DNA of 35,973 nucleotides from a virus (IMGVR_UViG_3300014890_000016:1-35973); one strand, 5' to 3'; shown: positions 1-34,815, counted from the stretch's first letter. The notes: a model not told the origin generated them from the letters alone. Numbers and translations are program-made.

Positions 1-1005
1 TTAATCCCCCGTGGACACTGCGTGGACACTTACGCCACCTTTCAGCGGATTAAGGGCCACCGCATCCTGCAGGTAATCCGGTGCAAAATGTGCATACGCC
101 ATTGTTTGCTGAATGGTTGCGTGGCCAAGAATCTTCTGAAGCGCAATAATGTTTCCTCCGTTCATCACAAAATGGCTGGCGAACGTATGCCGCAGCACAT
201 GTGCAGCCTGACCTTTTGGCAAATCGGGCTTAACTCTTTTCAGCGCCAGGCAGAATTCCCGGTACTTCACCTCAAACAAGCTGCCTGTTTCTCTGGTTCT
301 GATCGCCTCACAAACCGCCTGCGAAATTGGCACCGTTCTCTTCCGGCCATTTTTGGTTTCAAGAAACGTCACTCGGTTATGAACTATCTGTTCACCACGG
401 AGCTTACAGGCTTCACTCCAGCGTGCCCCAGTGCTTAAACACAAAAGAGCAACACGCCAGTAATCGCCCTCCAATGTATCGAGCAATAACGCAACTTCCT
501 TCTGTGACAGGAACGCCATTTCTCGTGGAGATACATAAAGAATAGAAATTCCCCTTACCGGATGTTCTGCATCCCAAAGACCTATTTTTTTCAGCACGGT
601 AAACATTCCGGATAACCGATTCATGTACCTGTTAGCAGATGACGGTTTCAATCCATCAGCTATCTTTTGAGAACGCCACGCGATAATTTTCAGCTTATCA
701 AGATCCACAGCCTGCATATCAGCGCCAAGCTCATTGATTATGTTGCGCAGTTGTTTTCGGTCTTCTTCCGCCTTACGTCTGTGCTGGCCGTGATACATCC
801 ACCACAACTCAAGCAAATCATTTAGCGTTCGACGATCACGGTAGCCCTGTATATATTCCCGCTTTTCAGCGTTCGCCATGATGTAGCGTTCAGTGGCCAC
901 CGCTACCGATTTTTTGTCAAATACCTTACGCACGCGCTTTCCCTTGCGTCCGTTCGGCCTGATGTCCAGCAAATAACGACCATCTTCGAGCTTCTTAATC
1001 GACAT
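1..1005 (-). CDS. int: Tyrosine integrase, P2 Int-like
   Basis: Translation from the ATG at 1005 starts MSIKKLEDGRY (P2 Int starts MAIKKLDDGRY) and ends LNPLKGG..VHAVSTGD; GGAGGG Shine-Dalgarno upstream of that ATG. The track start at 1020 is a TTG upstream. Confidence 0.9.
   Translation of the reverse strand: MSIKKLEDGRYLLDIRPNGRKGKRVRKVFDKKSVAVATERYIMANAEKREYIQGYRDRRTLNDLLELWWMYHGQHRRKAEEDRKQLRNIINELGADMQAVDLDKLKIIAWRSQKIADGLKPSSANRYMNRLSGMFTVLKKIGLWDAEHPVRGISILYVSPREMAFLSQKEVALLLDTLEGDYWRVALLCLSTGARWSEACKLRGEQIVHNRVTFLETKNGRKRTVPISQAVCEAIRTRETGSLFEVKYREFCLALKRVKPDLPKGQAAHVLRHTFASHFVMNGGNIIALQKILGHATIQQTMAYAHFAPDYLQDAVALNPLKGGVSVHAVSTGD
8..35. repeat. Putative attL core, overlapping the 3' end of int
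   Basis: GTGGACACTGCGTGGACACTTACGC here resembles GTGGTCACTGTGTGGACATACGC at 34793..34815; the P2-type att core lies at the int 3' end (established). Confidence 0.4.
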
Positions 1006-1101
1006 AGCGAAGCCCTCCAATGAACCGCTTTACAATTTCTCCAGCTTCTTCCCAGCAACAGTCGGACCAGACAAATAACAGATCCAACCAGTTTTCTGGC
1101 C

Positions 1102-1416
1102 TCAGCGGAGTAATTTTTGGTTTGTTTCGGTTGAATCCTGATCGCCCTCCAAATTGCAGGAGCCATCATGAGAGAGAGGCGGGGCAATTTGTCCCGCAGC
1201 TTCGCCAGTTTGTCCGGTCATTAACCACAAAGTGTATTTATGAAACACAGGAATACGAATCACTCTCTCAACCAGCTCTGCTCTAGCAGGCTGATGCCCC
1301 GTTTCGTATTTCTGAATAGTGTTCAGTGGAATCCCTGTAATATCAGAGAACTGACGCCTGTTCAGCCCCTCAGCCTCCCTCATCCTCTGAAGCTTTTTTG
1401 AATAATCCATTGACAT
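1102..1416 (-). CDS. C: Immunity repressor, P2 C-like
   Basis: About 104 aa with HTH region LNRRQFSDITGIPLNTIQKYETG and the motif FHKYTLWLMTGQ...GQIAP matching P2 C (FTKYTLWFMTNQ...GQIAP). Start ambiguous between ATGs at 1410, 1416 and 1425; the 154-aa track ORF is an over-extension. Confidence 0.8.
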   Translation of the reverse strand: MSMDYSKKLQRMREAEGLNRRQFSDITGIPLNTIQKYETGHQPARAELVERVIRIPVFHKYTLWLMTGQTGEAAGQIAPPLSHDGSCNLEGDQDSTETNQKLLR

Positions 1417-1425
1417 GTTTCTCAT

Positions 1426-1537
1426 GTGAGAAATATACTCCTTTCTAAGTTGAGAAATGTTAAAACACATCGAATAGCCAAAATAAGCCCATATAAGCCA
1501 TTTTGAGCAATTCGAGCGAATTAAGGAGATTACCACA
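1426..1537. promoter_or_regulatory. C-cox divergent promoter/operator region with direct repeats
   Basis: Intergenic between divergent C and cox; direct repeats GTGAGAAAT and TTGAGAAAT about 26 bp apart, resembling the P2 arrangement of C operators as direct repeats. Confidence 0.45.
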
Positions 1538-1825
1538 ATGAGCGAATCAGAGCTTGAGGGGTTCATTCAGGTAGCACCATATCCACTTGAAGCGGTGCCA
1601 TATCAGCTATTCGCCAAGATGATTGGCCGCAAAGAATCAACCGTCAGAACCATGATTGACGCTGCAAAGCTACCAACGATTGACTTTGTAAAACCAGGTT
1701 CAGCAAAGACGCGAGCATCAGAAAACTGGGTATATCTGCCAGCATTTAACGCAGGTATGCGCAAAGCGTTTTTTGATCAGCCGAAAGAGCGCCGCGACGC
1801 ATGGTTGCTCTGGCTGGGTCTTTGA
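1538..1825 (+). CDS. cox: Cox-like excisionase / directionality factor
   Basis: 95 aa; PYQLFAKMIG..TVRTMID..KLPTIDF...ENWVYLPAFN...LLWLGL parallels P2 Cox (IPYQEFAKLIG...GEYWVYLPAWN...WLMWLGL); AAGGAG Shine-Dalgarno. Confidence 0.85.
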   Translation: MSESELEGFIQVAPYPLEAVPYQLFAKMIGRKESTVRTMIDAAKLPTIDFVKPGSAKTRASENWVYLPAFNAGMRKAFFDQPKERRDAWLLWLGL

Positions 1826-1846
1826 CGAGGATTTTTATGAGACAAC

Positions 1847-2178
1847 AACGTAATTCACGCTTCCGCAACGGCGCAGAACGCCACGCTAACCGTTTCGCTA
1901 CCAGTGCATCACGCAGCAGCTCTCGCTACAGCCTGAGCGAAACGCACGCAACACCAGACGGACACGCTGTAAAACAAACCGGCGAGCACACCTGGCTGAT
2001 TGAGAAAGCCGGAATCGTGGTCCACAAATGCCCGCGCAATCCGTTTACCGGAAACCGCATTTTTGCACTAAGCAGCGGCGACAATCAGTTCGGACAGGAT
2101 TTCACATTGTACGAAGCACTACGCACGGTTGATCGTCTGCTTCGCGGGCAAGGTTTTATTAAACAGGCTGACTTATAA
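1847..2178 (+). CDS. Hypothetical early protein with basic N-terminus
   Basis: ORF with GAGGA Shine-Dalgarno 7 nt upstream of ATG; in early operon after cox; no family recognised. Confidence 0.5.
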
Positions 2179-2188
2179 CAGGTGCTTT

Positions 2189-2476
2189 ATGACCAAAGAC
2201 TATGCACAAGGTGTATTTATCCGCTTTATTGATTTTCGCGGTGAACTGTTATTACGCGCATCCGCTATTGATGGAGTGGCTCCGGCGGGGAGAAACGGAA
2301 CCGCTGAAGCCACTTACGTTTATCTGAACGGCACTCGACTGCTTGTGGAACTTCCGTACCAGACCGTACGAGAAATCATTAGCGAAGCTGAAAAGGCACG
2401 TCAGGTTAATGGCGATAACCCCTATATCGAAATTATTTGTATGGATTCAGAAGCAGAAATCCAGAAGACAGATTAA
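2189..2476 (+). CDS. Hypothetical early protein
   Basis: 95-aa ORF in the co-directional early operon; no family recognised. Confidence 0.5.
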   Translation: MTKDYAQGVFIRFIDFRGELLLRASAIDGVAPAGRNGTAEATYVYLNGTRLLVELPYQTVREIISEAEKARQVNGDNPYIEIICMDSEAEIQKTD

Positions 2477-2486
2477 AGGGTGTGCG

Positions 2487-2729
2487 ATGGACAAAGAATA
2501 TAAAGCTCTCGTCAATAAAGCACTTGAGCGTTTTCATTTTCGCTTAAACACATCAGGGCTTCACGCCGAACACGCAGCCCATGATTCATTAGCAAGGGCA
2601 ATCAGAAGCCTTTATGACGTGGCTTTTTACGCTGACGATTTGGATGCAATTAACGAACTTTCCGAACTCGTCTGCGCTGCAGAATGCGGAGAACGCATTG
2701 AACCGTATAAACTGGGGAATATCGCATGA
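2487..2729 (+). CDS. Hypothetical early protein
   Basis: 80-aa ORF in the early operon; internal ATG chosen over the longer track ORF that overlaps the previous gene. Confidence 0.45.
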   Translation: MDKEYKALVNKALERFHFRLNTSGLHAEHAAHDSLARAIRSLYDVAFYADDLDAINELSELVCAAECGERIEPYKLGNIA

Positions 2730-2839
2730 GCATATTTATGTCATGGCTTGTTCTGATTATTTCGGTGGCCTGCGCAATCGGGATTATGCGAATTATTCAT
2801 TCAGTGAAAAAGATTGAGAATTTTTACTCTGACGAATAA
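2726..2839 (+). CDS. Small hydrophobic peptide (37 aa), putative membrane protein
   Basis: ATGA start/stop overlap with the upstream ORF; translation MSIFMSWLVLIISVACAIGIMRIIHSVKKIENFYSDE has one predicted TM helix. Below the ORF-track size cutoff. Confidence 0.3.
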   Translation: MSIFMSWLVLIISVACAIGIMRIIHSVKKIENFYSDE

Positions 2840-2932
2840 CAGCACAAATAAAACACCAGATTAAATAAGAAAACGTGAAAACCATCCGAATTAGCGGAGG
2901 CATTCACACACGTAAATAATGGAGATACAAAA

Positions 2933-3343
2933 ATGAACGCAAAAGAAAAAGGCATTGTAACTGCGCTAAAAAATATATCGAAGACCGCAAACAGAGCCAT
3001 TCAGGATGCAACAAATGCAGGAATGATTGGGCCTGCCACCACAGCCATGATGATAGCAAGAGTAACCGCCGAAGCAGCCGAAATTATCGAAAAACAGGAT
3101 GCTGAACTAACGGTTCTCAGAACACAACCAGTCACCGGACTGGATTTGTCTAACACCGGACGCCTTATTTACACAATTGGCTCGGAGCCACAGCAATACA
3201 CCATTATCGCCGGATTACAGGATAAATACCTGATCACTCCTCACCCCATAAGGGAATCAGAAATTCTGACAAATCTCCGCCTGATAGAGCGCTCTCAAGT
3301 CGCATTCATTGATGACGCACAGCGCACCGTATTTAACGCATAG
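2933..3343 (+). CDS. Hypothetical early protein
   Basis: 136-aa ORF with GGAG Shine-Dalgarno; no family recognised. Confidence 0.55.
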   Translation: MNAKEKGIVTALKNISKTANRAIQDATNAGMIGPATTAMMIARVTAEAAEIIEKQDAELTVLRTQPVTGLDLSNTGRLIYTIGSEPQQYTIIAGLQDKYLITPHPIRESEILTNLRLIERSQVAFIDDAQRTVFNA

Positions 3344-3367
3344 GGTTACTGGACAAAAGGGGGCGCA

Positions 3368-3571
3368 ATGGCAATTAAGCGTTTTTCCGTCATTCGTTTC
3401 ACATCCAGAGGGCGTGAATACGAAGTTGACGAACGGCTGATTAAAACGCTCGACCGTCACCGTTCGCAACCTGACGCGCATCACATTTATCTCACTGACG
3501 ACACTTACTTCTGCGCCACCAACGTGGTGCAGGTGAACCTTATCCGACAGGTACAGGAGTCACGCAGATGA
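3368..3571 (+). CDS. Hypothetical early protein
   Basis: 67-aa ORF with G-rich Shine-Dalgarno; stop overlaps next start. Confidence 0.5.
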   Translation: MAIKRFSVIRFTSRGREYEVDERLIKTLDRHRSQPDAHHIYLTDDTYFCATNVVQVNLIRQVQESRR

Positions 3572-3813
3572 CCATTCTGGACTACATCGCCGCCAATCCG
3601 GGTTGTAGCGGTGGAGAAATCGCCGCCGCGCTGAATACCCCAACCACAGCCATTAATGCGGAGTTACGCCGACTCTGGCGCGACGGCTTAGTCATCAGAG
3701 AAGAACGCAAAACAGGCGGTCGGTTCTCTTACCAGGTAAACCCGATGCCGTTCGGGTGTGGCAACCCACTTACTCACATGTTTAACCAGCTACTGAAGGA
3801 AGCCAGAGCATGA
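3568..3813 (+). CDS. Hypothetical protein, possible winged-helix DNA-binding
   Basis: ATGA coupling to flanking ORFs; segment SGGEIAAALNTPTTAINAELRRLWRDGLV resembles a wHTH recognition region (inference). Confidence 0.5.
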   Translation: MTILDYIAANPGCSGGEIAAALNTPTTAINAELRRLWRDGLVIREERKTGGRFSYQVNPMPFGCGNPLTHMFNQLLKEARA

Positions 3814-4109
3814 GCACCATCAACCACCAGGAACTACGCGAACTGGCGACAGACCTGCAACGAATGGCAACGCATCAAAAATTACTGGCGTTTCGCGCAA
3901 TGCTCTCGTCGTCTGCTGTGCTGGCACTGCTGGATGAGCTGGAGCACGCCAGAACCATGGTTCCAGCCATTCGCCTGACGCTCCATCATGAAATCGCTGA
4001 TTTCTGTGCACCACTGGGTTCACCTGGCGAACCGGAAACACCGGAAGCAATGCAGCGAGAGCTGCTGCAACGCATCGACAAGGTTTTTGATTTTTTCCTT
4101 AACCAGTAA
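3810..4109 (+). CDS. Hypothetical early protein
   Basis: 99-aa ORF translationally coupled (ATGA) to the upstream gene. Confidence 0.5.
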   Translation: MSTINHQELRELATDLQRMATHQKLLAFRAMLSSSAVLALLDELEHARTMVPAIRLTLHHEIADFCAPLGSPGEPETPEAMQRELLQRIDKVFDFFLNQ

Positions 4110-4120
4110 GGGACCAGAGC

Positions 4121-4267
4121 ATGCACAAAGCCTTTGAACGATGGATGCATCAGCGTTACGGCAACCACTACGACCTGACAAGAGATACCGATGGCTACTA
4201 CTGCCGCGAAATTGTGAAACGAATGTTTGAAGTGTGGTGCCACCACCGCGGTTTATACGCCGTGTAA
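4121..4267 (+). CDS. Small hypothetical protein (48 aa)
   Basis: Short ORF filling the gap between neighbouring early genes; weak ribosome-binding site. Confidence 0.25.
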   Translation: MHKAFERWMHQRYGNHYDLTRDTDGYYCREIVKRMFEVWCHHRGLYAV

Positions 4268-4294
4268 AGCACCACCGCTAACGAGGTAAAAAAT

Positions 4295-4855
4295 ATGCAT
4301 AACTTCAAACTCAAACCAATAGGTACACCTGGCGTGGCTCCGGCACATGTAAAGCCATGGACACAACAGGAAGATGAAATGCTTATCTCGCTTTATCCGG
4401 AGTGCAACACACGCCAGATAACCGAACAAATTCAACGAACCCATGACGCAGTTATGCACCGACTTAGTTTTTTACGTGATCGTGGATTGATTGGTCGCAA
4501 GAAAAAGACTCTGAGTGCAAAGGAGATCACCTTTCTCATCGAAAACCGCCGCACCAGAACGGCACGGGAACTGGCCGCCGAGGTGGGATGCACCATTCGC
4601 ACCGTACAAGTGCACCTGAAAAAACGTGGTTACAGCCTGCGAAAATGCGGAGGACTCCACCACCTGACCAGATACAGCGATCACCTGGTGGAACTGGTGA
4701 CTGAACTACATGATGAGCAGCACATGACGTTCGCCATGATAGCAAAACACATTAGTCACACACTGCAAATAAAAGTCACCACTCGCACAGCACGTTTTCT
4801 TTACGGTCGCCGCACCGCCGCCGACGCCGTGCTGTACGAGCTATTACCAAACTGA
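4295..4855 (+). CDS. Hypothetical protein with possible HTH segments
   Basis: 186-aa ORF with GAGGT Shine-Dalgarno; followed by an intrinsic terminator. Confidence 0.55.
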   Translation: MHNFKLKPIGTPGVAPAHVKPWTQQEDEMLISLYPECNTRQITEQIQRTHDAVMHRLSFLRDRGLIGRKKKTLSAKEITFLIENRRTRTARELAAEVGCTIRTVQVHLKKRGYSLRKCGGLHHLTRYSDHLVELVTELHDEQHMTFAMIAKHISHTLQIKVTTRTARFLYGRRTAADAVLYELLPN

Positions 4856-4975
4856 GTAATCATCATGCACACACAAAAAAACCGCTTGCCATGCCGCAAT
4901 CAGTCAGGTTACATTTCCGCTGCATCTCATAAAACGGGTGCCGGGATTGGAACCCCGCAGACTAACAGAGCGCAC

Positions 4976-4997
4976 AACCGCGCCAGCGGTTTTTTTG
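4976..4997 (+). terminator. Rho-independent terminator inside the early region
   Basis: AACCGC-gcca-GCGGTT hairpin followed by a run of seven T. Confidence 0.5.
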
Positions 4998-5175
4998 TGC
5001 GTACCGTATCGCCACGTCTTTTTCGCACACGAATTATGGTGGGGCGTACAGGGCCAGCATCAGCTGGGCCGGGTCCTCTGTTAGCCGGTAGTTCCAACCC
5101 TGTGCGTCTCACCACCCTGAGCTTGGAACCTCTGGATGGTGAGTTTTCAAAACTGACTAACAGAGAGGCCACACC

Positions 5176-5406
5176 ATGGCAAACCGCAAACAGCACCGCG
5201 CTATCGCGGAGCGTCGTCACATCCAGACTGAAATCAACCGTAGACTTTTCCGCGCATCACGCGTCGCGCAAATCATGCACATCAATATGCTGCATGAGCG
5301 CAGTCATGCGCTATCAAACACTTATTCCGCCTCTGTTTTTAGCTATCTGGCGGATGATTTGTACGAGCTTCAGCAGCTCATCCAGCAGCAAAACAAACTC
5401 CATTAA
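5176..5406 (+). CDS. Hypothetical protein
   Basis: 76-aa ORF with GAGAGG Shine-Dalgarno 7 nt upstream; sits after a structured non-coding stretch. Confidence 0.4.
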   Translation: MANRKQHRAIAERRHIQTEINRRLFRASRVAQIMHINMLHERSHALSNTYSASVFSYLADDLYELQQLIQQQNKLH

Positions 5407-5478
5407 TTCCTGTTCCGGGCCTTTCCTGCACCTTGCGGCGGGAGGCCTTCGCACATCTGTAACAAGAGGATTGCCGCA

Positions 5479-5844
5479 ATGATTCTCGCCAACGACTTTC
5501 TTGAATACCTGCTCAACACAGAGCGTGATCTTGCCGTTCGCGTGCGTGAACGTTATGACATGCACCTGAAATCCCTGCCTGTACCGCAGCTCGCTGACGG
5601 AAAGATTGTTATTGATGGTCGCTACATGATTGACAGCCACGAGGGAAATTACAGGCTTTACCGCATTGAAGGTGGCACCCCGTACGTTATTGGCATTTAC
5701 CAGCGCCCATCCTCCGCAATCGTCGATGTGATTGCCGACAGCATCCGCATCACACATCGCCATGCCGACACAGAAGACACCGTGCTGGAAATTCAGCGGC
5801 TGGCTACAGTCTGCCGCGACACCCTGAATGGCATGACGAAGTAA
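5479..5844 (+). CDS. Hypothetical protein
   Basis: 121-aa ORF with AGAGGA Shine-Dalgarno, immediately upstream of gpA. Confidence 0.5.
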   Translation: MILANDFLEYLLNTERDLAVRVRERYDMHLKSLPVPQLADGKIVIDGRYMIDSHEGNYRLYRIEGGTPYVIGIYQRPSSAIVDVIADSIRITHRHADTEDTVLEIQRLATVCRDTLNGMTK

Positions 5845-5850
5845 ATCACT

Positions 5851-8715: not shown

Positions 8716-8749
8716 AAACGATTAATTAATCAACATAAGGAAAAGCGAC

Positions 8750-10769: not shown

Positions 10770-11027
10770 CTATCCAGCCTGCAACAACTCCAGCGCCATC
10801 TGTTTTTCTTCCGGGCGCATCCGTTCAATCAACAGCTTTAACACACCGTGATCCAGCCCGCTGGGCACCAGTGTGTGCGAGTAGGTCAGATTCATCACCC
10901 AGGTATGTCCGCACTCGAGACGGGTGCAACGGTAATACACATCAGCAAACTGATCGGTTTTCCAGGCTGTTTTCTCAATCACTGCATGTGCACCGCAGCA
11001 ATGACATCGCGCTTTCTGTCTGCGCAT
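10770..11027 (-). CDS. ogr: Ogr/Delta-family zinc-finger late transcription activator
   Basis: 85 aa from ATG at 11027 with GGAGG Shine-Dalgarno; C-x2-C, 22 residues, C-x4-C spacing identical to P2 Ogr. Confidence 0.65.
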   Translation of the reverse strand: MRRQKARCHCCGAHAVIEKTAWKTDQFADVYYRCTRLECGHTWVMNLTYSHTLVPSGLDHGVLKLLIERMRPEEKQMALELLQAG

Positions 11028-11092
11028 TTTCCACCTCCCGGAACAGCGTTTTACTGCCGCCGATTTTACCCGCTCTTTCCCCATACCGCACA

Positions 11093-12127
11093 TCACTCCA
11101 TGGGTTCATCAAAATCAAGAATAAATTTCACCTCCCCCAGTCGCCTGATATCCGGGTCACTGTTGATCCCCTCCATAATCAGACGGCGCATCGGAATAAC
11201 CTCATCCCTGTAATATGCCTCGCGGGATTTAAGTGGGTCGCCAAGCCCGGCCGTATTTGCGGGAATGATGCCTGCAAGTCCGGGTGGAAAACGGTGCGCC
11301 ACGAGCTGATCCTGAGCACTGATGGTTTTTATATTCAGGAACTCATCTTTTGTACCTGAATCCCCGATAGGGATCACCTTAACGCCTTCTTTGTCTCCGC
11401 CAGGTATATTGATAAACATGGATTTAAAATTGCCCGCCCCTTTTGAGGCCTCTATCTTTTTACGGAATTCCGCCTCGAGCTCGGGATCCATGTCCGGGTC
11501 AGTGGAATACAGGATATAACCAAGATGTGCGCCGTTCTTGTAATACTTGCGGCGAAAGCGGGTGGCATCCACATTCAGCATGGCAGATTCCATCCCGTGA
11601 ATATAATCCGGGACACCGTAAACCTGCTGTTGCGGGTCATAAATGGCCACAAACACCACTTCACCTGACGGATACACGAGATCTTCCAGTGCCGCCTGCA
11701 CAATCACCGTGCCCCCCTCGTTGTTGCGCCGCAGGTACAGAGAAGGCAACGTATGCAGGCGCACCACCCGACCAAAGCCATTACGTACTTTAAGCAACCC
11801 CATATCCCCGAATATCAGCAGATTGGTCACTGCTGCCGCCATGGCGGCGTGTGTCATACCACCACCACCCCGAAAACCCTGCATGATCATATTGACGCGC
11901 GCACGCAATACCGCGCCGTGATACGGCGCGATATTGGACAACATGGCAAGATCCATGCGCTCAATGGGCGGCGTGTACCAGCCGTTATAGCCATCCCAGA
12001 GCGAGCCGTAATAACAGCCCCATGCAGCAACCGGTTCAGGGTCACCAAATTCAATAAACGTCATTTTGCTGGCTGTTTTTTTTGCCACGCCATCGTGTAG
12101 CACGGGGGATTTTTTCTTTTTACTCAT
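11093..12127 (-). CDS. Q: Portal protein, P2 gpQ-like
   Basis: 344 aa; position and orientation as in P2, downstream of and overlapping the terminase gene. Confidence 0.85.
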   Translation of the reverse strand: MSKKKKSPVLHDGVAKKTASKMTFIEFGDPEPVAAWGCYYGSLWDGYNGWYTPPIERMDLAMLSNIAPYHGAVLRARVNMIMQGFRGGGGMTHAAMAAAVTNLLIFGDMGLLKVRNGFGRVVRLHTLPSLYLRRNNEGGTVIVQAALEDLVYPSGEVVFVAIYDPQQQVYGVPDYIHGMESAMLNVDATRFRRKYYKNGAHLGYILYSTDPDMDPELEAEFRKKIEASKGAGNFKSMFINIPGGDKEGVKVIPIGDSGTKDEFLNIKTISAQDQLVAHRFPPGLAGIIPANTAGLGDPLKSREAYYRDEVIPMRRLIMEGINSDPDIRRLGEVKFILDFDEPME

Positions 12128-27564: not shown

Positions 27565-27577
27565 TTAAGGAGAAATA

Positions 27578-28120
27578 ATGGAACTCGTAAACGTTACGCG
27601 TTACTACCCTGAAGACATGCCTTATGGTGAAGGCATTCAGTATTTCCGTAGTGAAGACGGGCAGGATTTTTATGAATCACTGGATAAATTCACGAAGAAA
27701 TACAAGCTGTGCACACATCCTGAAACCGGCGTTATTTATTCCATGGCGGAAGATGTATCCCGCCTTTATCCCGTTGGTTTTACCATTGTGGAAGTGGATG
27801 AACTACCGGAAGGATTTTGTATAGAAGCGCGCTGGTATTATAAAGACGGTGAAGTACTGCCGGTCCCTGTTGACTACCGGCAGCAGGCAGAGTCGGAGCG
27901 TGCGCGCCTGACAGTGATTGCCGAACGGGAAATATCCGATAAGAAGACAGATTTACTTCTGGGGATCATCAGCGATGAAGAAAAAGAAAAACTGACAGCC
28001 TGGCGCATTTACGCGAAATCGCTGCAGGCGATGGATTTCAGCCAGATTACCGATAAATCATCGTATGCCACAATTGCATGGCCGGAATTACCGCAGGATA
28101 TTAACGAGAATAAAAAATAA
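27578..28120 (+). CDS. G: Tail fibre assembly chaperone, gpG/Tfa family
   Basis: 180 aa; C-terminal SDEEKEKLTAWRIYAKSLQAMDFSQ...IAWPELP matches the Tfa consensus. Confidence 0.8.
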   Translation: MELVNVTRYYPEDMPYGEGIQYFRSEDGQDFYESLDKFTKKYKLCTHPETGVIYSMAEDVSRLYPVGFTIVEVDELPEGFCIEARWYYKDGEVLPVPVDYRQQAESERARLTVIAEREISDKKTDLLLGIISDEEKEKLTAWRIYAKSLQAMDFSQITDKSSYATIAWPELPQDINENKK

Positions 28121-29172: not shown

Positions 29173-29196
29173 CATTTGAACGTACAGGAAAATGAG

Positions 29197-29919
29197 ATGA
29201 AATATTCTGTATGGGAGCACGCCATTCTGCGTCCGGCTCCGATAGCCATCACCTGTTCAGTGGTTTGCCTCCACCCATGGTCAGAAAATACGGGAAACAT
29301 TACACCATCAGGGCGTTACCTCAGCCCGGATAATGCTGTATCCGCGCTTTTACCTTATCTGACAGAAAACACTGAAAAAGACGTTGTGGCGCTGTTATTT
29401 TGCGCTCCGTCTGCTGGCGAGTTTTTATCACTGGCCAGACAGTTTTCGGGTGCACTTCCATTGGCGGAAGTGGGAAGAATGTCCCGCATGATCTCCAGTC
29501 AGCTTTCGCTGGCCGTGAGTAAAATGCAGCTCCCTGCAAAACCGGCAACCACACTTCCTGCAGAAGTCACGCTGTCCACACAAACCACCCGCAGCATGAC
29601 GCGGGCAGCGACTATTGCGCGGGCTGCGATCCCGACCGCTGTATCTCCGGAAACATTATCCTCGTCTCTGAATCAGTTCAGAATCGCGAGAGATAAGGCA
29701 CTACAGGAAATCACCGACCAGCAGGCCGCAATTCAGAAAAACGCGTGTCCGGTGTGGCGTTTTTTTTATACGGGCACACTAAATCAGGTTGCAGCACTGA
29801 TAAAAAAAAATATTCCACATCCGGAATGGGTTTTTACAGCTGTGATGCTGTTTGTCGGTAATGATCTTTCATCACTAAGAGAATCACTACATGACCCAGA
29901 TGATCGTTCTTGCACTTGA
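29197..29919 (+). CDS. Hypothetical protein downstream of the second fibre gene
   Basis: 240-aa ORF with AGGAA Shine-Dalgarno; Ala/Ser/Thr-rich centre; no Tfa signature. Confidence 0.4.
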   Translation: MKYSVWEHAILRPAPIAITCSVVCLHPWSENTGNITPSGRYLSPDNAVSALLPYLTENTEKDVVALLFCAPSAGEFLSLARQFSGALPLAEVGRMSRMISSQLSLAVSKMQLPAKPATTLPAEVTLSTQTTRSMTRAATIARAAIPTAVSPETLSSSLNQFRIARDKALQEITDQQAAIQKNACPVWRFFYTGTLNQVAALIKKNIPHPEWVFTAVMLFVGNDLSSLRESLHDPDDRSCT

Positions 29920-30466
29920 CGGAGAAGCCATTCTGTTACGCAACATAACCGTCAGCGCCACCATGCAACTACCGGATAAAGATATGTCCGGACAGTCAAC
30001 CAGCACCACCAGTGCCCAGCAGGGAAACAAGGCCAAGGAGCTACGCGTGTCGGGTGTTATTGATTTTAACGATGAAGCCATTCTGACCCGTATTTTTCAG
30101 CTTGCAGAAGCTACAGAAAGCAATGGGGCTAAAAAAACATACCGCATCGCCAACGCTACTGCTAAAGCGATTAATATGCGACAGGGTGTTTTTTCCGGCG
30201 GCATTGATGCCACGGAGCAGCAAGGCAAGATGCACTGGCAGGTCACCTTTACTCTCAGGGAAAAATTAAGCGTGCCGGAAAAAGCATCGGCACGCAGTGG
30301 CTCACAGAAAACAATTGCAAAACAGCAGACGCAGAACGGCAGCGAACAGGCGCCAGACAAAGGGATGAATACCCAGGATGCGTTCTGGAAAAATATCAAT
30401 GATGGTATTGGCTCCGGGCTGGACTGGATTGGCATCGGGAGCGTGAAAGAGGAAGGGAAAACATGA
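29891..30466 (+). CDS. Putative tail protein (gpU position)
   Basis: 191 aa directly upstream of and ATGA-coupled to the gpD-like hub gene. By position only. Confidence 0.35.
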   Translation: MTQMIVLALDGEAILLRNITVSATMQLPDKDMSGQSTSTTSAQQGNKAKELRVSGVIDFNDEAILTRIFQLAEATESNGAKKTYRIANATAKAINMRQGVFSGGIDATEQQGKMHWQVTFTLREKLSVPEKASARSGSQKTIAKQQTQNGSEQAPDKGMNTQDAFWKNINDGIGSGLDWIGIGSVKEEGKT

Positions 30467-32160
30467 AATTAACCCAGCGCTGTATGATTAATGGTGAGCT
30501 GGCGGAAATTGCCGATATCAGCCTTGTTCTTACCCTGAATGCTGCCGGGCGCGGCTTCATTTCTGTTAATAATCTGCCCCCCCAAAAAAGCCTTGCCGGC
30601 GCAATGATACAAATTGATCTCGGCCGTAATGGTGAGGCATGGCGCTATTTCTCCGGCTACATTGAGCGCGATCAACCCGCCGAAAATGGCTCACGCCGCC
30701 TTTTTATCCGTGAAGCAGCTGCCGTGCTGGATTTTGATTTCCCCTGCTCCATGCAACATCCAACGTTACGGGATGTACTCGATAATCTGGGTAAACAAAG
30801 CGGCATCGTTTTCATCACGCCAGATGCGGATTACGTCAGCACACCGACACCTTACATCACCCACAGCGGCAGCGGAGCACAACTGCTCAGCCAGTTGGGG
30901 CGAGCATTCAGTATCAGCGATTACGTCTGGCATCCAATGCCGGACGGTTCCGTATTTGTGGGAAGCGCACCGGATTCACGGTTTGCCAGTATTACCATGC
31001 CGGATATTCCGCAACAATACACACTCGGGCAAAGCGGCGGAAACAGCATCGACATCATGTTTATGGAAACTGTGCGACCGGGCGTGAACCTTCCGGCCGG
31101 GCGCATTACCCGTGTAGCCCTCAACAACGAGAAAATGACCCTGACATGGGAACGCCTTACCGCCACGGGTAGCCCTGTTTCCAAATCACCATTACGCAGA
31201 CAGATGGAAACACAGTTCCCGGAACTGGCCAGCGGCACTCTGCATACCCGGCTGGCGCGCGTCATTGCGCCAACGGAATCTGTCACCCTGGGCGATATTG
31301 CCGACAGCTTCCGCCCACGCTACGCCGTCGATGTGCAACTGCTTGATGAGAATGGCAACGATAAAAGCGATACGCCTGTTTATCCGGCTGTACCACTCCC
31401 CGTCCCGATGGCTGGTAGCGAGGCGGGATGTTTTGCCTACCCGCCAGCAGGCACCATCGTGGAAATATCCAACATTGAAGGGCGACCGGATAAACCTGTC
31501 ATCAGGCAAATCTTACCCGCGGGCCATAACCTGCCTGATGTAAAGCCCGGCGAACAGCTGCAGCAACAGCGCGCAGAGGTGTTTCAGCGCGTCACGACTG
31601 ACGGAAGCTGGTACAGAGAAACTGACCAGCAAATCAGGGAGCATTCAGCCAGGCGAACCATTAACAGCGATCAGGAAGAACGCACAACAACAACCAGAAC
31701 AACAACAGTCCAGGCAAACGACATAACCAGTGTTCTTGGTACCAGTAAGCTGATGACAGGCCAGACAGAACACCTTACTACCGGCAATTATGCGATCGCA
31801 GCCGGTGAGCATATCCAGATGGTAGCGCAGAATTTGCTGACTCAACTCAAAGGGGCGATATCCACTATTGAGCATGACCTCACCGAAAACGTGGGAGGCC
31901 GCAGAACATGCAGGGCAGACAGCGGTCTGGAATTTACCGCCCCGACAGTATTTATTGGTCGCGGCGGCTCGCGGGAAAAGTCCGGACTTAACCTGCTGAC
32001 GTTGCTGATCGATATTCTGGACCTGGTTCAGTTGCTGGCCACACATACAGCAAACCACACCCATAGCAACACTGGCACGCCAATGAACAGCAGCGAATTT
32101 GCAGCAGATGCCCTGCAGGCGACGAGCCTGCGCGAAAAATACGGCGACATTATCGCCTGA
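30463..32160 (+). CDS. D: Baseplate hub protein, gpD-like, with C-terminal extension
   Basis: 565 aa; N-terminal region resembles the late-control-D family pattern; C-terminal LLATHTANHTHSNTGTP is His-rich; last gene of the late operon, followed by a terminator. Confidence 0.5.
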   Translation: MKLTQRCMINGELAEIADISLVLTLNAAGRGFISVNNLPPQKSLAGAMIQIDLGRNGEAWRYFSGYIERDQPAENGSRRLFIREAAAVLDFDFPCSMQHPTLRDVLDNLGKQSGIVFITPDADYVSTPTPYITHSGSGAQLLSQLGRAFSISDYVWHPMPDGSVFVGSAPDSRFASITMPDIPQQYTLGQSGGNSIDIMFMETVRPGVNLPAGRITRVALNNEKMTLTWERLTATGSPVSKSPLRRQMETQFPELASGTLHTRLARVIAPTESVTLGDIADSFRPRYAVDVQLLDENGNDKSDTPVYPAVPLPVPMAGSEAGCFAYPPAGTIVEISNIEGRPDKPVIRQILPAGHNLPDVKPGEQLQQQRAEVFQRVTTDGSWYRETDQQIREHSARRTINSDQEERTTTTRTTTVQANDITSVLGTSKLMTGQTEHLTTGNYAIAAGEHIQMVAQNLLTQLKGAISTIEHDLTENVGGRRTCRADSGLEFTAPTVFIGRGGSREKSGLNLLTLLIDILDLVQLLATHTANHTHSNTGTPMNSSEFAADALQATSLREKYGDIIA

Positions 32161-32200
32161 ACACCAGACATAAAAGCCACATAAACGCCCCATCACGCAA

Positions 32201-32226
32201 CGCACGGTCCCGGCCGTGCGTTTTCC
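32201..32226 (+). terminator. Rho-independent terminator ending the late operon
   Basis: CGCACGG-loop-CCGTGCG hairpin followed by TTTT. Confidence 0.5.
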
Positions 32227-32702
32227 TATCCACCACCTGATTAATGCGTTCTGCGTGCCATTCTGGCGCTGTATGCACACACCGCGTAAACGGTGTGACG
32301 TAAAGCGTGAGGTGACGTAAACCGCGCTACCCCCTCCAACCCGCGGGTTTCGTGTCGAAACAGTTTTTCAGTTTTCTGCCGTGCAAAAATGACCGCCAGC
32401 CCGCGCAGTAACTAAGGGAAAAGCGAAGATCTGAAATTTCACGCCGGGAAATTTTTTGCAGTTTTCAGAGAGATTTTTACGATCCCATAAATGGCAGGAG
32501 AAATAAAACAGTATGATATTAAAAGAATTTTCATGCTTTACGCGAGACGAAAAACGATCACGAAAGGATCGCATCAAACAACCATCAAACAAAGAAGCCA
32601 GACGCGGCGCGGACTGCGTAAAATCAAGAGCCAGAATCAAACTGAAAAAAGGATCAATTCCGTGCTCTGATCGCACATGACGATCTACGCAGTAACAGGA
32701 CG

Positions 32703-32728
32703 AAAAAAACCGGCGCGAACGCCGGCGG
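32703..32728 (-). terminator. Rho-independent terminator for a leftward transcript
   Basis: On the minus strand CCGCCGGCG-TTCG-CGCCGG followed by seven T; no minus-strand CDS ends here, so it would terminate a short RNA. Confidence 0.45.
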
Positions 32729-32806
32729 AAGCGTGTATCAAATACGTAATTGGGTAATGTCTAAGGTCGGGAATTTTACATCAGAAAACTGACAAGTCTC
32801 AACGGA

Positions 32807-32836
32807 TTGAAACAAGGGAAAAAACCAGGCTAGAAT
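32807..32836 (+). promoter_or_regulatory. Candidate sigma70 promoter upstream of the hok-like ORF
   Basis: TTGAAA, 18-bp spacer, TAGAAT; about 150 nt upstream of the toxin start codon. Confidence 0.35.
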
Positions 32837-32988
32837 TCGCACGGGTGCCTTTCGGCTGATGGCTGGAGGGAATACCCGAAGGCCGGATGTGGAAAGGCCC
32901 CGGAAAACATTTTTGTTTAACCGAGGCCCTAACCATCTACCCTAGACAAGTGATAGGTTAGCGCCTCCCTGAAAAAGGAGCAAGCGCT

Positions 32989-33129
32989 ATGTCGCAAAAA
33001 TCGCTTACGGCCATTACGTTCTGCGTAACGGCAATCCTCATCATCTGGATGCTGCACGGTTCACTGTGTGAAATACGGATGAGCTTCTGGGGAGCGGAGT
33101 TTGCGGCGTTCTTACAGTGTAAGCAGTAA
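32989..33129 (+). CDS. hok: Hok/Gef-family type I toxin peptide (46 aa)
   Basis: MSQKSLTAITFCVTAILIIWMLHGSLCEIRMSFWGAEFAAFLQCKQ: one TM helix then the SLCEIR motif and an AAFL.CK C-terminus as in HokA/PndA; GGAG Shine-Dalgarno. Below the ORF-track cutoff. Confidence 0.7.
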   Translation: MSQKSLTAITFCVTAILIIWMLHGSLCEIRMSFWGAEFAAFLQCKQ

Positions 33130-33214
33130 GGAAACCGCGACGGGGGAGCAATCCCCCGTCAATCGGTTGCCAGGGTAAGGTCGATAAGGCACCCTATCTC
33201 GCAAACCTGAATGC

Positions 33215-33246
33215 AAAAAGCCCGCAGGATTAATCGCGGGCTTTTT
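33215..33246. terminator. Bidirectional Rho-independent terminator
   Basis: AAAAA-GCCCGC-loop-GCGGGC-TTTTT; ends the hok transcript and the convergent minus-strand gene. Confidence 0.55.
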
Positions 33247-33275
33247 ATTTCCAGAGAGGGTGGTTGGCTTACCGA

Positions 33276-33713
33276 TTATTCTTCATTTTCCTTTGACGTT
33301 ATTACCACAGTAGCCAGTTTATCAATCAGGCGCTCACACGCATCAACATCTTTGAGGTTTCTTAATTTGAGCTTTGCAGTTTTAGGCTCATCATCTCTGG
33401 TACAAAGGTGTAGCTCAACTTCAACATCATTCCTGTTTAACAACCCCATAATAACCCCTGCAAATTTTTTCGCCCGTGAGAGCAATTCGAACATAACACT
33501 AAGCATATCGGGTGCATTCGCAGAGAAGCAAGTCACGCGACCTATATCAAATCCATTATTTTGAAAATACTCCTCTATTGAAGAGGAAAGCTCTGAAGGG
33601 CATGTAATCCTGACACTTGCAAATCGGGACTGATGTAATGGTGTTCCCTTTAAATATTGCACTTGAAGCCTCCGCATTAAAACTACAGCACAAGTGAGGC
33701 CAAACAGCCCCAT
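33276..33713 (-). CDS. Hypothetical protein
   Basis: About 145-aa ORF divergent from com; start uncertain (TTG 33719, ATG 33713 or ATG 33677); no family recognised. Confidence 0.45.
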   Translation of the reverse strand: MGLFGLTCAVVLMRRLQVQYLKGTPLHQSRFASVRITCPSELSSSIEEYFQNNGFDIGRVTCFSANAPDMLSVMFELLSRAKKFAGVIMGLLNRNDVEVELHLCTRDDEPKTAKLKLRNLKDVDACERLIDKLATVVITSKENEE

Positions 33714-33732
33714 GAACAAAATAGAAAACGCA

Positions 33733-33766
33733 GATCGATAATATAAAACCGATCGATAAAATCGAT
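33733..33766. promoter_or_regulatory. Three ATCGAT palindromes, two containing GATC, in a divergent promoter region
   Basis: ATCGAT at 33733, 33752 and 33761 between the leftward ORF and the com-methylase operon. Confidence 0.35.
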
Positions 33767-33814
33767 CAATTTGTTATCATACCGGCAGCAGTAACCACAT
33801 AAGAGGTGCCGCAA

Positions 33815-34012
33815 ATGACGCAAAATGTACGATGCAAAAATTGCAACAAACTACTTGCCCGCGCCTCATTTCACTACATTGAAATAAAATGTCCGCGCTG
33901 CAAAACACTTAACCAGATAACGAGAGCCATTGAGCACCCCACACACATGAGGAGCTATGACCGTGGGGATCGCAATCCAGCACCAACCAGCACATACACC
34001 GGAACACACTAA
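33815..34012 (+). CDS. com: Com-like zinc-finger translational regulator
   Basis: MTQNVRCKNCNKLLARASFHYIEIKCPRCKTL matches Mu Com (MKSIRCKNCNKLLFKADSFDHIEIRCPRCKRH); AAGAGG Shine-Dalgarno; 3' end overlaps the methylase gene as com overlaps mom in Mu. Confidence 0.7.
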   Translation: MTQNVRCKNCNKLLARASFHYIEIKCPRCKTLNQITRAIEHPTHMRSYDRGDRNPAPTSTYTGTH

Positions 34013-34748
34013 GGTTTATCAGACTGACAATGCCACGCTCTGTCGTGGGAATGCGCTGGAAATATTGCCGCTGATTGAGCCAGAAAGCATTGACGCCTTA
34101 ATCACTGATCCGCCTTACAGTTCGGGCGCGACACATAAGGCCGGACGCACCAACCATGGTAGCCATGCAAAATATCTGAACGGCGAGAGCCTTCACCGCT
34201 TTGATGGGTTCGCGGGTGAAAACATGGACGCCCGTTCGTGGGCTTACTGGACACAATTATGGATGGCACAGGCACACCGCGCAGTCAGGCCGGGCGGTTA
34301 TGCCCTGGTATTTACTGACTGGCGACAACTACCAGCTTTAACCGATGCGTTTCAGGCCAGTGGTTTTACATGGCGCGGCATCATTGCGTGGAACAAGGGG
34401 AGGGGGTCACGAACACCACATACCGGATATTTCCGGCATCAGTGCGAATACATCGTCTGGGGCAGCAAAGGCCATTTAGATAAATCGCCTTCGGGGCCGT
34501 TCGACGGCTGCATGACGTTCCCGGTTATCCCGTCAAAGAAAATGCACCCGACCGGAAAACCAGAAGAACTAATGGCAGAACTGGTCAGGACTGTGAATAG
34601 CGGCGGAACAGTCCTTGATCCTTTTATGGGGTCAGGGACAACGGGTGTGGCTGCACTTAAAGCAGGACGCAAATTTATTGGTATAGAAACCAGTGATCAT
34701 TATTTTGATGTAGCAACACAACGGCTCAAAACGGCGATCGAACCATAA
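33957..34748 (+). CDS. DNA methyltransferase, N6-adenine/N4-cytosine class
   Basis: 263 aa; catalytic DPPY (ALITDPPYSSG) precedes the SAM-binding FMGSGTTG motif; target base not determinable from sequence. Confidence 0.85.
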   Translation: MTVGIAIQHQPAHTPEHTKVYQTDNATLCRGNALEILPLIEPESIDALITDPPYSSGATHKAGRTNHGSHAKYLNGESLHRFDGFAGENMDARSWAYWTQLWMAQAHRAVRPGGYALVFTDWRQLPALTDAFQASGFTWRGIIAWNKGRGSRTPHTGYFRHQCEYIVWGSKGHLDKSPSGPFDGCMTFPVIPSKKMHPTGKPEELMAELVRTVNSGGTVLDPFMGSGTTGVAALKAGRKFIGIETSDHYFDVATQRLKTAIEP

Positions 34749-34792
34749 GACAAAGCCCGCAATGTTGCGGGCTTACTCTACCTCTCGAAAAT

Positions 34793-34815
34793 GTGGTCAC
34801 TGTGTGGACATACGC
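34793..34815. repeat. Putative attR core, imperfect copy of the int-end repeat
   Basis: GTGGTCACTGTGTGGACATACGC versus 11..35; about 21 of 23 positions match, then a 2-nt indel before TACGC; lies between the methylase terminator hairpin and the flk-like gene. Confidence 0.4.

What the first reader, a model, noticed from the sequence alone, without database searches (positions are those of the whole stretch)
1..34815. Prophage boundaries marked by an imperfect repeat, next to an flk-like gene
The last codons of int (11..35) and a site about 185 bp upstream of the flk-like gene (34793..34815) share a GTGGACAC-containing repeat, 21 of 23 positions identical before a 2-nt indel. Imperfect att repeats are expected for P2-type integration into secondary sites. 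If correct, the hok and com-methylase island is prophage cargo occupying the position where P2 carries ogr.
Basis: partly seen in the sequence, partly recalled or inferred. Interest (0 to 1): 0.5.

Follow-up and report, generated by a model that had tools for sequence, protein, structure and literature searches.

The report
P2-type integrase arm sites, not att core

Summary
The repeat exists as described: 11-35 against 34793-34815, 21 of 23 aligned positions, one 2-nt gap. It does not mark the prophage ends.

Empty-site alleles (pdxB, 98 bp, flk) and 302-303 occupied E. coli genomes place the junction at a perfect 20-bp core, TTTTCATCAACAAGGATTTT. This core is codons 2-8 of pdxB. One copy is attR at 34857-34876. 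The other lies 182 bp left of window base 1, outside the window. It was read from a contig 100% identical to window 1-6425.

This is the published pdxB attachment site of Citrobacter phage phiSM (Xuanwuvirus); the window int is 96-97.5% identical in DNA to that group.

They match the P2-type arm consensus tgTGGaCa. They align with the Int P-arm and P'-arm sites annotated in phage P2, whose P' arm also lies inside the last int codons.

Phage Chuche carries D, ogr, hok, com, methylase, attP and int in that order. Here an Ogr/Delta gene sits at 10770-11096(-).

Known biology; low interest.

The parts
1..1005 (-). int: P2-type tyrosine integrase, 334 aa. The stop codon is window bases 1-3.
   Evidence: Translation. 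The exact protein carries Pfam Int_N + Phage_integrase and is always followed by pdxB. 50% identical to P2 Int, with a near-identical N-terminal arm-binding region.
10..28 (+). P' arm: two direct units cGTGGACA (10-17 and 21-28), 11 bp apart, inside the last int codons. Inferred Int arm-type binding sites.
   Evidence: Aligns with the P2 'Int P' arm' protein_bind feature, which also lies inside the 3' end of P2 int. Consensus tgTGGaCa from PMC3448106.
1102..1425 (-). C-type immunity repressor (107 aa, MRNMSMDY...), same strand as int.
   Evidence: The exact protein is on record in 63 collection blocks. In all 6 places shown it is followed by int and then pdxB.
1538..1825 (+). cox (excisionase and Pc repressor family).
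   Evidence: Pfam Phage_Cox, E 3.4e-23.
10770..11096 (-). Ogr/Delta-like zinc-finger protein, the candidate late-gene activator, immediately downstream of the portal gene on the minus strand.
   Evidence: Pfam PF04606, E 1.3e-12, 47.9 bits against a cut-off of 26.3. Weak tblastn hit with P88 Ogr.
30463..32160 (+). Last ORF of the HP1/ESSI-2-like virion module (565 aa, no Pfam family). P2-type D and U are absent.
   Evidence: The neighbouring ORF matches HP1_ORF34. Sheath is DUF2586 and tube is HP1 Orf24.
32700..33165 (+). hok/sok-type toxin-antitoxin locus (hok CDS 32989-33129).
   Evidence: Pfam HOK_GEF. Sub-threshold Rfam sok match at 32843-33002, E 8e-9. Face-to-face promoter-like sites and terminators. 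Shared with P88, phiSM, PhiR44_2 and Chuche.
33276..33719 (-). Hypothetical cargo ORF, AT-rich (about 41% GC).
   Evidence: (no family). Its homologue is annotated as hypothetical in NZ_LR778147.
33806..34012 (+). com-like zinc-ribbon gene. Its 3' end overlaps the methylase start.
   Evidence: Pfam Zn_ribbon_Com, E 1.1e-11.
33957..34748 (+). N6/N4 DNA methyltransferase (cargo).
   Evidence: Pfam N6_N4_Mtase, E 3.4e-33. Found in 211 of 5426 E. coli genomes. The com-methylase pair sits next to attP in phage Chuche.
34753..34774 (.). GC-rich terminator hairpin that closes the cargo, immediately before the P arm. P2 has the same layout, with the ogr terminator before its P arm.
34792..34810 (+). 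P arm: two direct units TGTGGTCA (34792-34799) and TGTGGACA (34803-34810), 11 bp apart. Inferred Int arm-type binding sites.
   Evidence: ATGTGGTCA and GTGGAC are invariant across the 8 attP/attR sequences aligned, including the annotated Int P arm of P2.
34833..34845 (+). IHF consensus TATCAATAAATTA (WATCAANNNNTTR), between the P arm and the core.
   Evidence: One of only 2 matches in the window. Lies in the stretch AAATCCTTTTA..TCA that is conserved with the annotated IHF site of P2.
34857..34876 (+). attR core, TTTTCATCAACAAGGATTTT. This is the true right junction. It equals codons 2-8 of pdxB read on the minus strand. Strand exchange is inferred to fall within 34863-34876.
   Evidence: Single occurrence in the window. 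Identical in attB, attL and attR. Empty sites align from exactly 34857. Contains the published phiSM 17-mer. Crossover inferred from the C/A polymorphism in strain 31B19CPO012.
34835..34879 (-). Orphaned native pdxB start (GTG at 34877-34879) with a 14-codon stub, MKILVDEKNKDLIY*, that reads into the prophage.
34978..35973 (+). flk, a host gene.

Best explanation
The window is a P2-family (Peduoviridae) prophage of about 35.06 kb, integrated at the 5' end of pdxB between pdxB and flk.

Integration is by a P2-type heterobivalent tyrosine integrase. It recombines a 20-bp core, TTTTCATCAACAAGGATTTT, that is shared by attP and attB. In this window the core is at 34857-34876 (attR). The second copy (attL) is 182 bp to the left of base 1, outside the window.

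It is the two sets of arm-type Int-binding sites of attP:
- P arm, 34792-34810 (TGTGGTCA, then TGTGGACA 11 bp on).
- P' arm, 10-28 (cGTGGACA twice, 11 bp apart), embedded in the last codons of int.

In the circular phage the order is: terminator, P arm, IHF site, core, 182-bp P' spacer, P' arm/int. Integration splits this at the core, so the two arm sets end up at opposite ends of the prophage, each just inside a junction. That is why they look like terminal repeats.

Inferred mechanism: the N-terminal domain of Int binds the arm units while its core-binding and catalytic domains act on the core. IHF bends the P arm. Cox, made from the divergent early operon, directs excision.

Shown here: the junction positions, the core identity, and the conservation and homology of the arm units. 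Inferred, not shown: protein binding.

The hok/sok, com and methylase genes occupy the cargo slot between the virion genes and the P arm.
For: Junction:
- The empty allele has pdxB, 98 bp, then flk, with ...catATTTTCATCAACAAGGATTTTcac(GTG of pdxB).
- Occupied alleles have the same 20-mer followed by phage DNA on the pdxB side.
- The window has phage DNA, the 20-mer, then cacgtttg....
- Contig L019 is 100% identical to window 1-6425. It puts the left core 182 bp before window base 1.
- 303 of 5426 complete E. coli genomes carry the attL junction and 302 the attR junction. All others break at the edges of the core: window 34857 for the attR query, position 113 of the attL query.
- Every place read with this exact Int (8 of 8) or this repressor (6 of 6) has pdxB next to int.
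- Free or circular phage records P88_4B11 and Chuche show the intact attP in the predicted order.
- The core contains the 17-bp attP/attB determined experimentally for phage phiSM (PMC6456863). That phage's int is 96.2% identical in DNA to the window's.

Arm sites:
- The P2 record annotates Int P arm, IHF, core, Cox and Int P' arm, with the P' arm inside the 3' end of int.
- P2 reads gaTGTGGTCAatgTGTGGAC and cTGTGGACACTGTGTGGACAC. The window reads TGTGGTCActgTGTGGACA and GTGGACActgcGTGGACAC.
- These units are invariant in alignments A1 and A2, while the core differs between P2 and this group.
- Int residues 1-45 are nearly identical to P2 Int.
- The two-unit motif occurs only at these two places in the window.
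- An IHF consensus lies between the P arm and the core.
Against: - No binding or recombination experiment exists for this element. The arm-site function rests on homology with footprinted P2 sites.
- The left core copy is not in the window. It was read from an identical contig and from relatives.
- The P' units lie in coding sequence (SVHAVST, also conserved in P2 Int). Part of their conservation could therefore reflect protein constraint.
- P2-type cox-boxes are not enriched in the 182-bp P' spacer.
- The P' arm is about 105 bp further from the core than in P2 (192 bp against 87 bp). The geometry is therefore not identical.
Confidence: 0.88

Rival explanations
1. One reading: the two GTGGACA-containing segments are imperfect attL/attR core repeats created by P2-type integration into a secondary site. 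On this view the prophage runs from about 11 to about 34815.
For: The two segments lie near the two ends, on the same strand, and are 21/23 identical. P2 is known to use secondary sites with imperfect cores (general knowledge, not tested here).
Against: - Sequence to the right of 34815, up to 34876, is phage attP DNA shared with free phages P88_4B11 and Chuche.
- Host homology starts at 34857.
- To the left of window base 1 there are 182 more bp of phage DNA before the host junction.
- A perfect 20-bp repeat flanks the element in 302-303 genomes.
- The same segments are present together in unintegrated attP. They therefore pre-exist integration and are not generated by it.
Confidence: 0.01
2. 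Chance similarity with no function.
For: The pairwise score of 16 is reached by 2% of shuffles, and other tiles of the window score higher. GTGGACA as a 7-mer is not enriched in the window: 4 found against 4.4 expected.
Against: - The two-unit, 11-bp-phased motif is unique to these two places, against 0.01 expected.
- Both copies are conserved in position and sequence in the attP/attL/attR sequences aligned for each arm (8 for the P arm, 5 for the P' arm), each set including P2, where they are annotated Int-binding sites.
Confidence: 0.02
3. The units are conserved for another reason. The left copy would reflect only coding constraint on the Int C-terminus. The right copy would bind some other protein, or form part of the cargo terminator region. 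Neither would serve as an Int arm site.
For: The P' units encode SVHAVST, which is also conserved in P2 Int as SVHTVST. No biochemical data exist for this phage.
Against: - The non-coding P-arm copy has the same sequence and phasing, and is invariant from P2 to this phage while its flanks diverge.
- In P2 both are annotated as Int-binding sites.
- The Int arm-binding domain is conserved.
Confidence: 0.07

Closest known systems
Bacteriophage P2 attP (NC_001895: terminator, Int P arm, IHF, core, Cox, Int P' arm within int)
   Same: - Same order of elements and same arm-unit sequences (TGTGGTCA/TGTGGAC and TGTGGACAC x2).
- Same 11-bp phasing.
- The P' arm begins 8-10 nt into the 3' end of int.
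- Similar distance from P-arm start to core start: 65 bp here, 63 bp in P2.
- Homologous IHF stretch.
- Int 50% identical, with a near-identical N-terminal domain; Cox family excisionase present.
   Different: - Unrelated core: 20 bp in pdxB, against the 27-bp P2 core at locI.
- P' spacer of 182 bp against about 87 bp.
- Cox-boxes not recognisable.
- The slot between the virion genes and the P arm holds hok/com/methylase instead of ogr alone.
Citrobacter rodentium phage phiSM (Shae_phiSM) and the Xuanwuvirus/P88 group integrating at pdxB (Magaziner et al. 2019, PMC6456863)
   Same: - int 96-97.5% identical in DNA.
- The same core: the published 17-mer ATCCTTGTTGATGAAAA is the reverse complement of core positions 1-17.
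- The same P' spacer carrying AAGGAG plus an in-frame TTG that rebuilds the pdxB 5' end.
- The same early region up to parM at about 94% identity.
- The same hok locus.
   Different: - The virion module from about 9.9 to 32.2 kb is not P88-like. It is HP1/ESSI-2-like, with the sheath at most 58% amino-acid identity to any sequenced phage.
- D and ogr are missing from the right end, and Ogr/Delta is encoded next to the portal gene.
- The cargo is com-methylase instead of zinc-ribbon/TagO-like genes.
Escherichia phage Chuche (PP925824)
   Same: Carries hok, com, DNA methyltransferase, then attP and int in the same order and about 95% identical. This shows that the island travels in a phage genome.
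   Different: Chuche has a P2/P88-type tail with D and ogr directly before hok. It lacks the 147-aa hypothetical ORF. Its int is 91.5% identical.
Lambda attP (P/P' arm-type sites, IHF, Xis): the paradigm for heterobivalent integrases
   Same: Same logic: arm sites distinct from the core, separated to the two prophage ends by integration, with host bending protein and excisionase as accessory factors (general knowledge; PMC3448106).
   Different: Different arm sequence, number and arrangement. Cox replaces Xis. No sequence homology was tested.

Membership tests
   Host homology starts at 34857, not at 34793-34815. 182 bp of phage DNA lie to the left of window base 1.
   Both segments are present together in the unintegrated attP of P88_4B11 and Chuche. 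Neither segment appears in the sequence read across the empty site.
P2-type attP (heterobivalent tyrosine integrase site) | A core identical in attP and attB, duplicated as a direct repeat at both prophage ends. | tested here: met
   The 20-bp TTTTCATCAACAAGGATTTT is present in attB, attL and attR. One phage variant differs at position 6.
P2-type attP (heterobivalent tyrosine integrase site) | At least two direct repeats matching tgTGGaCa on each side of the core (PMC3448106). | tested here: met
   34792-34799 and 34803-34810; 10-17 and 21-28. Aligned with the annotated P2 arm sites.
P2-type attP (heterobivalent tyrosine integrase site) | An integrase of the P2 type with the N-terminal arm-binding domain. 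| tested here: met
   50% identity to P2 Int over the full length, with the N-terminal 45 residues nearly identical. Pfam Int_N + Phage_integrase.
P2-type attP (heterobivalent tyrosine integrase site) | An IHF site between the P arm and the core. | tested here: met
   A perfect WATCAANNNNTTR match at 34833-34845, one of 2 in the window, within a stretch conserved with the annotated IHF site of P2. Met at sequence level only.
P2-type attP (heterobivalent tyrosine integrase site) | A Cox protein, and an array of cox-boxes between the core and the P' arm. | tested here: inconclusive
   The Cox gene is present. TTAAASNCM matches in the 182-bp spacer are not above shuffles. The P2 control region is also weak under this test, and this Cox may recognise a different box.
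P2-type attP (heterobivalent tyrosine integrase site) | Int binds the arm units and catalyses attP x attB recombination. | not testable with these tools
   Needs EMSA or footprinting and integration/excision assays. Integration at this core was shown experimentally only for phiSM (PMC6456863).
phiSM / P88 group (genus Xuanwuvirus) | Integration module (int, attP core, P' spacer) of the phiSM type at pdxB. | tested here: met
phiSM / P88 group (genus Xuanwuvirus) | Genome-wide nucleotide similarity, including the virion genes. | tested here: not met
   Only about 40-52% of window 1-17000 and at most 9% of 17000-34876 match any sequenced phage. The tail genes are HP1/ESSI-2-like.

The most novel reading that the evidence does not exclude
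In lysogens pdxB has lost its own promoter, ribosome-binding site and GTG start. It sits 158 bp downstream of, and co-directional with, the prophage C-int operon. The pattern scan found no intrinsic-terminator-like site in between.

The unusually long P' spacer (182 bp against about 87 bp in P2) may therefore have evolved to carry replacement expression signals: AAGGAG plus an in-frame TTG. Vitamin B6 synthesis would then be driven partly by read-through from the lysogenic (Pc) transcript, which would couple an important host gene to the prophage's regulatory state.

Separately, the window represents an unisolated mosaic lineage. It combines the phiSM/P88 integration, immunity and replication module with an HP1/ESSI-2-like virion module and a relocated ogr.
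Probability: 0.2. Interest if true: 0.4.

Novelty: already known. Interest (0 to 1): 0.15.

Why it matters
Mostly as a correction. Terminal look-alike repeats in P2-family prophages can be the integrase arm sites, which sit tens to hundreds of bp inside the true junctions. Taking them for att cores misplaces the boundaries, here by 46-65 bp on the right and about 190-210 bp on the left. It also invites wrong ideas about secondary-site integration.

The correct boundary confirms three things:
- The hok/sok and com-methylase genes are phage-borne cargo.
- The pdxB start codon is replaced by phage sequence in lysogens.
- This site is occupied in about 1 in 18 complete E. coli genomes.

None of this is new in kind. 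The site was published for phiSM, and the arm consensus for P2-like phages.

Tried and rejected
- Exact-sequence look-ups of the 154-aa ORF 1102-1566(-) and of the methylase found nothing. The shorter 107-aa repressor start worked and gave the identical contig L019.
- Pairwise alignment statistics do not single out the repeat. GTGGACA alone is not enriched.
- A second core copy inside the window, which would point to a tandem or remnant element before the hok island, was not found with up to 3 mismatches.
- tblastn with P2 Ogr, D and U found no homologue in the window. Only P88 Ogr gave a weak hit, which led to the Ogr/Delta ORF at 10770-11096.
- The cox-box search in the P' spacer was inconclusive. 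A promoter scan of the int-pdxB spacer gave only one weak site, downstream of the TTG, and no terminator.
- Rfam at gathering threshold found nothing in the island. Only a sub-threshold sok match appeared.
- One repeat finder failed because minus-strand regions are not accepted.
- A genome-contig scan for the source genome was not run, because that collection holds one genome per species.

Full report
**Observation**

- A, window 11-35: GTGGACACTGCGTGGACACTTACGC
- B, window 34793-34815: GTGGTCACTGTGTGGACATACGC

They share 21 of 23 aligned positions with one internal 2-nt gap.

A lies in the last codons of int. Int is window 1-1005 on the minus strand, 334 aa; window base 1 is the first base of its stop codon. 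B starts 185 bp before the flk ATG at 34978. That gene is genuine flk, 98-99% identical to E. coli flk.

As a raw alignment the match is unremarkable. Its score of 16 is reached by 20 of 1000 shuffles, and other 300-nt tiles of the window score 17-19. The 7-mer GTGGACA is not enriched either: 4 found against 4.4 expected.

The internal structure is not random. Each segment is two 8-bp units 11 bp apart. The two-unit pattern GTGGWCAYTGYGTGGACA, allowing up to 2 mismatches, occurs only at 11 and 34793, on the same strand, against 0.01 expected.

**Where the junctions really are**

All 5426 complete E. coli genomes match the flk end of the window. Most align only from about 34857 rightwards.

An empty allele (NZ_CP018991) has pdxB and flk divergent and 98 bp apart. 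It reads ...ggcatATTTTCATCAACAAGGATTTTcacgtttgtg, where cac is the GTG start of pdxB on the minus strand.

A close occupied relative (NZ_LR778147) has the same island. On the pdxB side it reads ...ggcatATTTTCATCAACAAGGATTTT|taacccttttt..., followed by 182 bp and then the int stop codon.

The window itself reads ...tttgtttTTTTCATCAACAAGGATTTT|cacgtttgtg at 34857-34876. That 20-mer occurs only once in the window, even allowing 3 mismatches.

The window's own left flank was recovered from a Logan contig, L019, that is 100% identical to window 1-6425. There the core ends exactly 182 bp before window base 1.

Two junction-spanning queries gave matching counts:
- 303 of 5426 genomes have the pdxB-side junction and 302 have the flk-side junction.
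- All others break at the edges of the 20-mer: window 34857 for the flk-side query, position 113 of the pdxB-side query.

Every place read that encodes exactly this Int (8 of 8), or this repressor (6 of 6), has pdxB next to int.

The element therefore runs from a core 182 bp left of the window to 34876, about 35.06 kb. Site B ends 41 bp before the core starts. Site A starts 192 bp after the left core ends.

**This site is already published**

The int gene is 96-97.5% identical in DNA to Xuanwuvirus P88_4B11, Escherichia phage PhiR44_2 and Citrobacter phage Shae_phiSM.

Magaziner et al. 2019 (PMC6456863) mapped the phiSM attP/attB experimentally. It is the 17-mer ATCCTTGTTGATGAAAA, 6 bp inside the 5' end of pdxB. 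This is the reverse complement of positions 1-17 of the 20-mer found here.

They also noted that the phage supplies an AAGGAG Shine-Dalgarno sequence, an in-frame TTG and a putative promoter, and that lysogens still grow on minimal medium. The same sequence is present in the window's source contig: gataaAGGAGccttagaTTGtcagag...ttaAAAATCCTT. It gives an N-terminus LSETEKGL-KILVDEN.... PGAP accordingly annotates a 385-aa PdxB in lysogens, against 378 aa in empty alleles.

On the flk side, the native pdxB promoter and GTG remain. They now read a 14-codon stub into the prophage.

The P2 record NC_001895 annotates the following, in order: ogr terminator, Int P arm, IHF site, attP core, Cox site, and an Int P' arm. 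The P' arm lies inside the 3' end of int, starting 8 nt from the first base of the stop codon.

| | P arm | P' arm |
|---|---|---|
| P2 | gaTGTGGTCAatgTGTGGACgtg | cTGTGGACACTGTGTGGACACtc |
| Window | aaTGTGGTCActgTGTGGACAtac (34792-34810) | ccGTGGACActgcGTGGACACtt (10-28) |

Alignments of 8 P-arm-to-core regions and 5 core-to-P'-arm regions, each including P2, show the following:
- The units ATGTGGTCA, GTGGAC and GTGGACAC are invariant, as is the stretch AAATCCTTTTA..TCA.
- The cores of P2 and of this group are unrelated.

Nilsson et al. [quoted passage not shown] These are bound by the N-terminal domain of Int.

The window Int is 50% identical to P2 Int overall. It is nearly identical over residues 1-45: MSIKKLEDGRYLLDIRPNGRKGKR against MAIKKLDDGRYEVDIRPTGRNGKR.

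A perfect IHF consensus, TATCAATAAATTA, lies at 34833-34845 between the P arm and the core. It is one of only two matches in the whole window.

The intact attP of free or circular phage genomes (P88_4B11, Chuche) shows the predicted continuous order: terminator, P arm, IHF, core, 182-bp spacer, P' arm/int. Integration cuts this at the core. The two arm sets therefore land at opposite prophage ends, each just inside its junction.

**Crossover position**

P88_4B11 has C at core position 6 (TTTTCCTC...), where attB has A. In strain 31B19CPO012 the flk-side core keeps the phage C, and the pdxB-side core keeps the host A. If the infecting phage carried the C, strand exchange lies to the right of position 6, which corresponds to window 34863-34876. 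This is an inference.

**The island**

Between the last virion ORF (30463-32160) and the P arm lie:
- about 540 bp of conserved, unannotated spacer, within the 680-bp stretch 32161-32840
- a hok/sok locus, about 32700-33165 (Pfam HOK_GEF; sub-threshold Rfam sok; promoter and terminator pattern)
- an AT-rich hypothetical ORF on the minus strand
- a Mu-Com-like zinc-ribbon gene, overlapping the start of the next gene
- an N6/N4 DNA methyltransferase
- a terminator hairpin

The hok locus is shared with P88, phiSM and PhiR44_2. In those phages it follows D and ogr and precedes zinc-ribbon/TagO-like cargo. Phage Chuche carries D, ogr, hok, com, methyltransferase, attP and int in that order. The com-methylase pair occurs in 211 of 5426 E. 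coli genomes, often about 34 kb from a pdxB-type int.

It does not replace ogr, because in P2-tailed relatives both are present.

This phage has no P2-type D or U. An Ogr/Delta zinc-finger gene is present at 10770-11096 on the minus strand, next to the portal gene.

**Nature of the prophage**

It is a mosaic:
- Window 1 to about 9.9 kb (int, C, cox, early genes, A-type replication protein, ParM) matches phiSM/P88-type phages at about 94%.
- Head genes Q, P, O, N and M are P2-family by Pfam.
- The tail is HP1/ESSI-2-like (DUF2586 sheath, HP1 Orf24 tube, HP1_ORF34). No close sequenced phage exists; the sheath is at most 58% amino-acid identity.

**Limits**

- No biochemical evidence exists for Int, IHF or Cox binding in this phage.
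- Cox-boxes could not be recognised in the P' spacer.
- The P' arm is about 105 bp further from the core than in P2.
- The P' units are also coding sequence (SVHAVST).
- The left core is outside the window.

**Verdict**

The boundary interpretation is wrong and the cargo interpretation is right. The feature is a textbook P2-type attP split by integration at the published pdxB site. Interest is low.

Noticed in passing
window 1-9900 versus 9900-32160: The prophage is a mosaic. The integration, immunity and replication module is about 94% identical to phiSM/P88 (Xuanwuvirus). The tail is HP1/ESSI-2-like (DUF2586 sheath, HP1 Orf24, HP1_ORF34), with no close relative among 50,697 phage records; the sheath is at most 58% amino-acid identity.
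   Followed up: partly
window 10770-11096 (-): An Ogr/Delta-like zinc-finger ORF (PF04606, E 1.3e-12) lies directly downstream of the portal gene. P2 and P88 carry ogr at the right end.
   Followed up: partly
window 4922-4996 and 5032-5119 (+): Rfam matches above gathering score to isrK (70.2 bits) and C4 antisense RNA (77.2 bits) in the early region. This suggests a P1/P7-type c4-like antisense control element inside a P2-family phage.
   Followed up: no
window 8750-10028 (+): ParM (StbA_N + ParM C-terminal domain) and a Plasmid_stab_B partner: a plasmid-type segregation pair in the prophage. It is also present in P88/phiSM.
   Followed up: no
window 10276-10701 (+): An Rrf2-family regulator ORF lies between the partition genes and the Ogr-like gene.
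   Followed up: no
window 33806-34748 (+): A Mu-Com-like zinc-ribbon gene overlaps the start of an N6/N4 DNA methyltransferase by 56 nt. The arrangement resembles com-mom translational control but with a true methylase. It is present in 211 of 5426 E. coli genomes.
   Followed up: partly
window 32161-32840: A roughly 680-bp stretch between the last tail ORF and the hok promoter has no annotated gene. It is nevertheless conserved at 89-92% in about 41-50 E. coli genomes, and contains small hairpin or terminator-like sites.
   Followed up: partly
L019 6426-6607 (the 182 bp left of window base 1) and pdxB: In lysogens the pdxB GTG start becomes TTA. The phage P' spacer supplies AAGGAG plus an in-frame TTG, giving an 8-residue N-terminal replacement. 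C, int and pdxB are co-directional, and the pattern scan found no intrinsic-terminator-like site between int and pdxB. There is only a palindrome with 16-nt arms, GGGCGATACTGAATAA/TTTTTCAGTATTGCCC.
   Followed up: partly
window 1-1005 versus L006 6001-7005: The int genes differ at 10 nucleotides, all at third codon positions and all synonymous. The Int protein is identical, and the same protein is on record in 572 collection blocks. This points to strong purifying selection.
   Followed up: no
L003 3074-3093 and L025 about 6786-6805 (strain 31B19CPO012): The two core copies of one prophage differ at position 6: phage-type C on the flk side and host-type A on the pdxB side. This places strand exchange to the right of that position.
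   Followed up: yes
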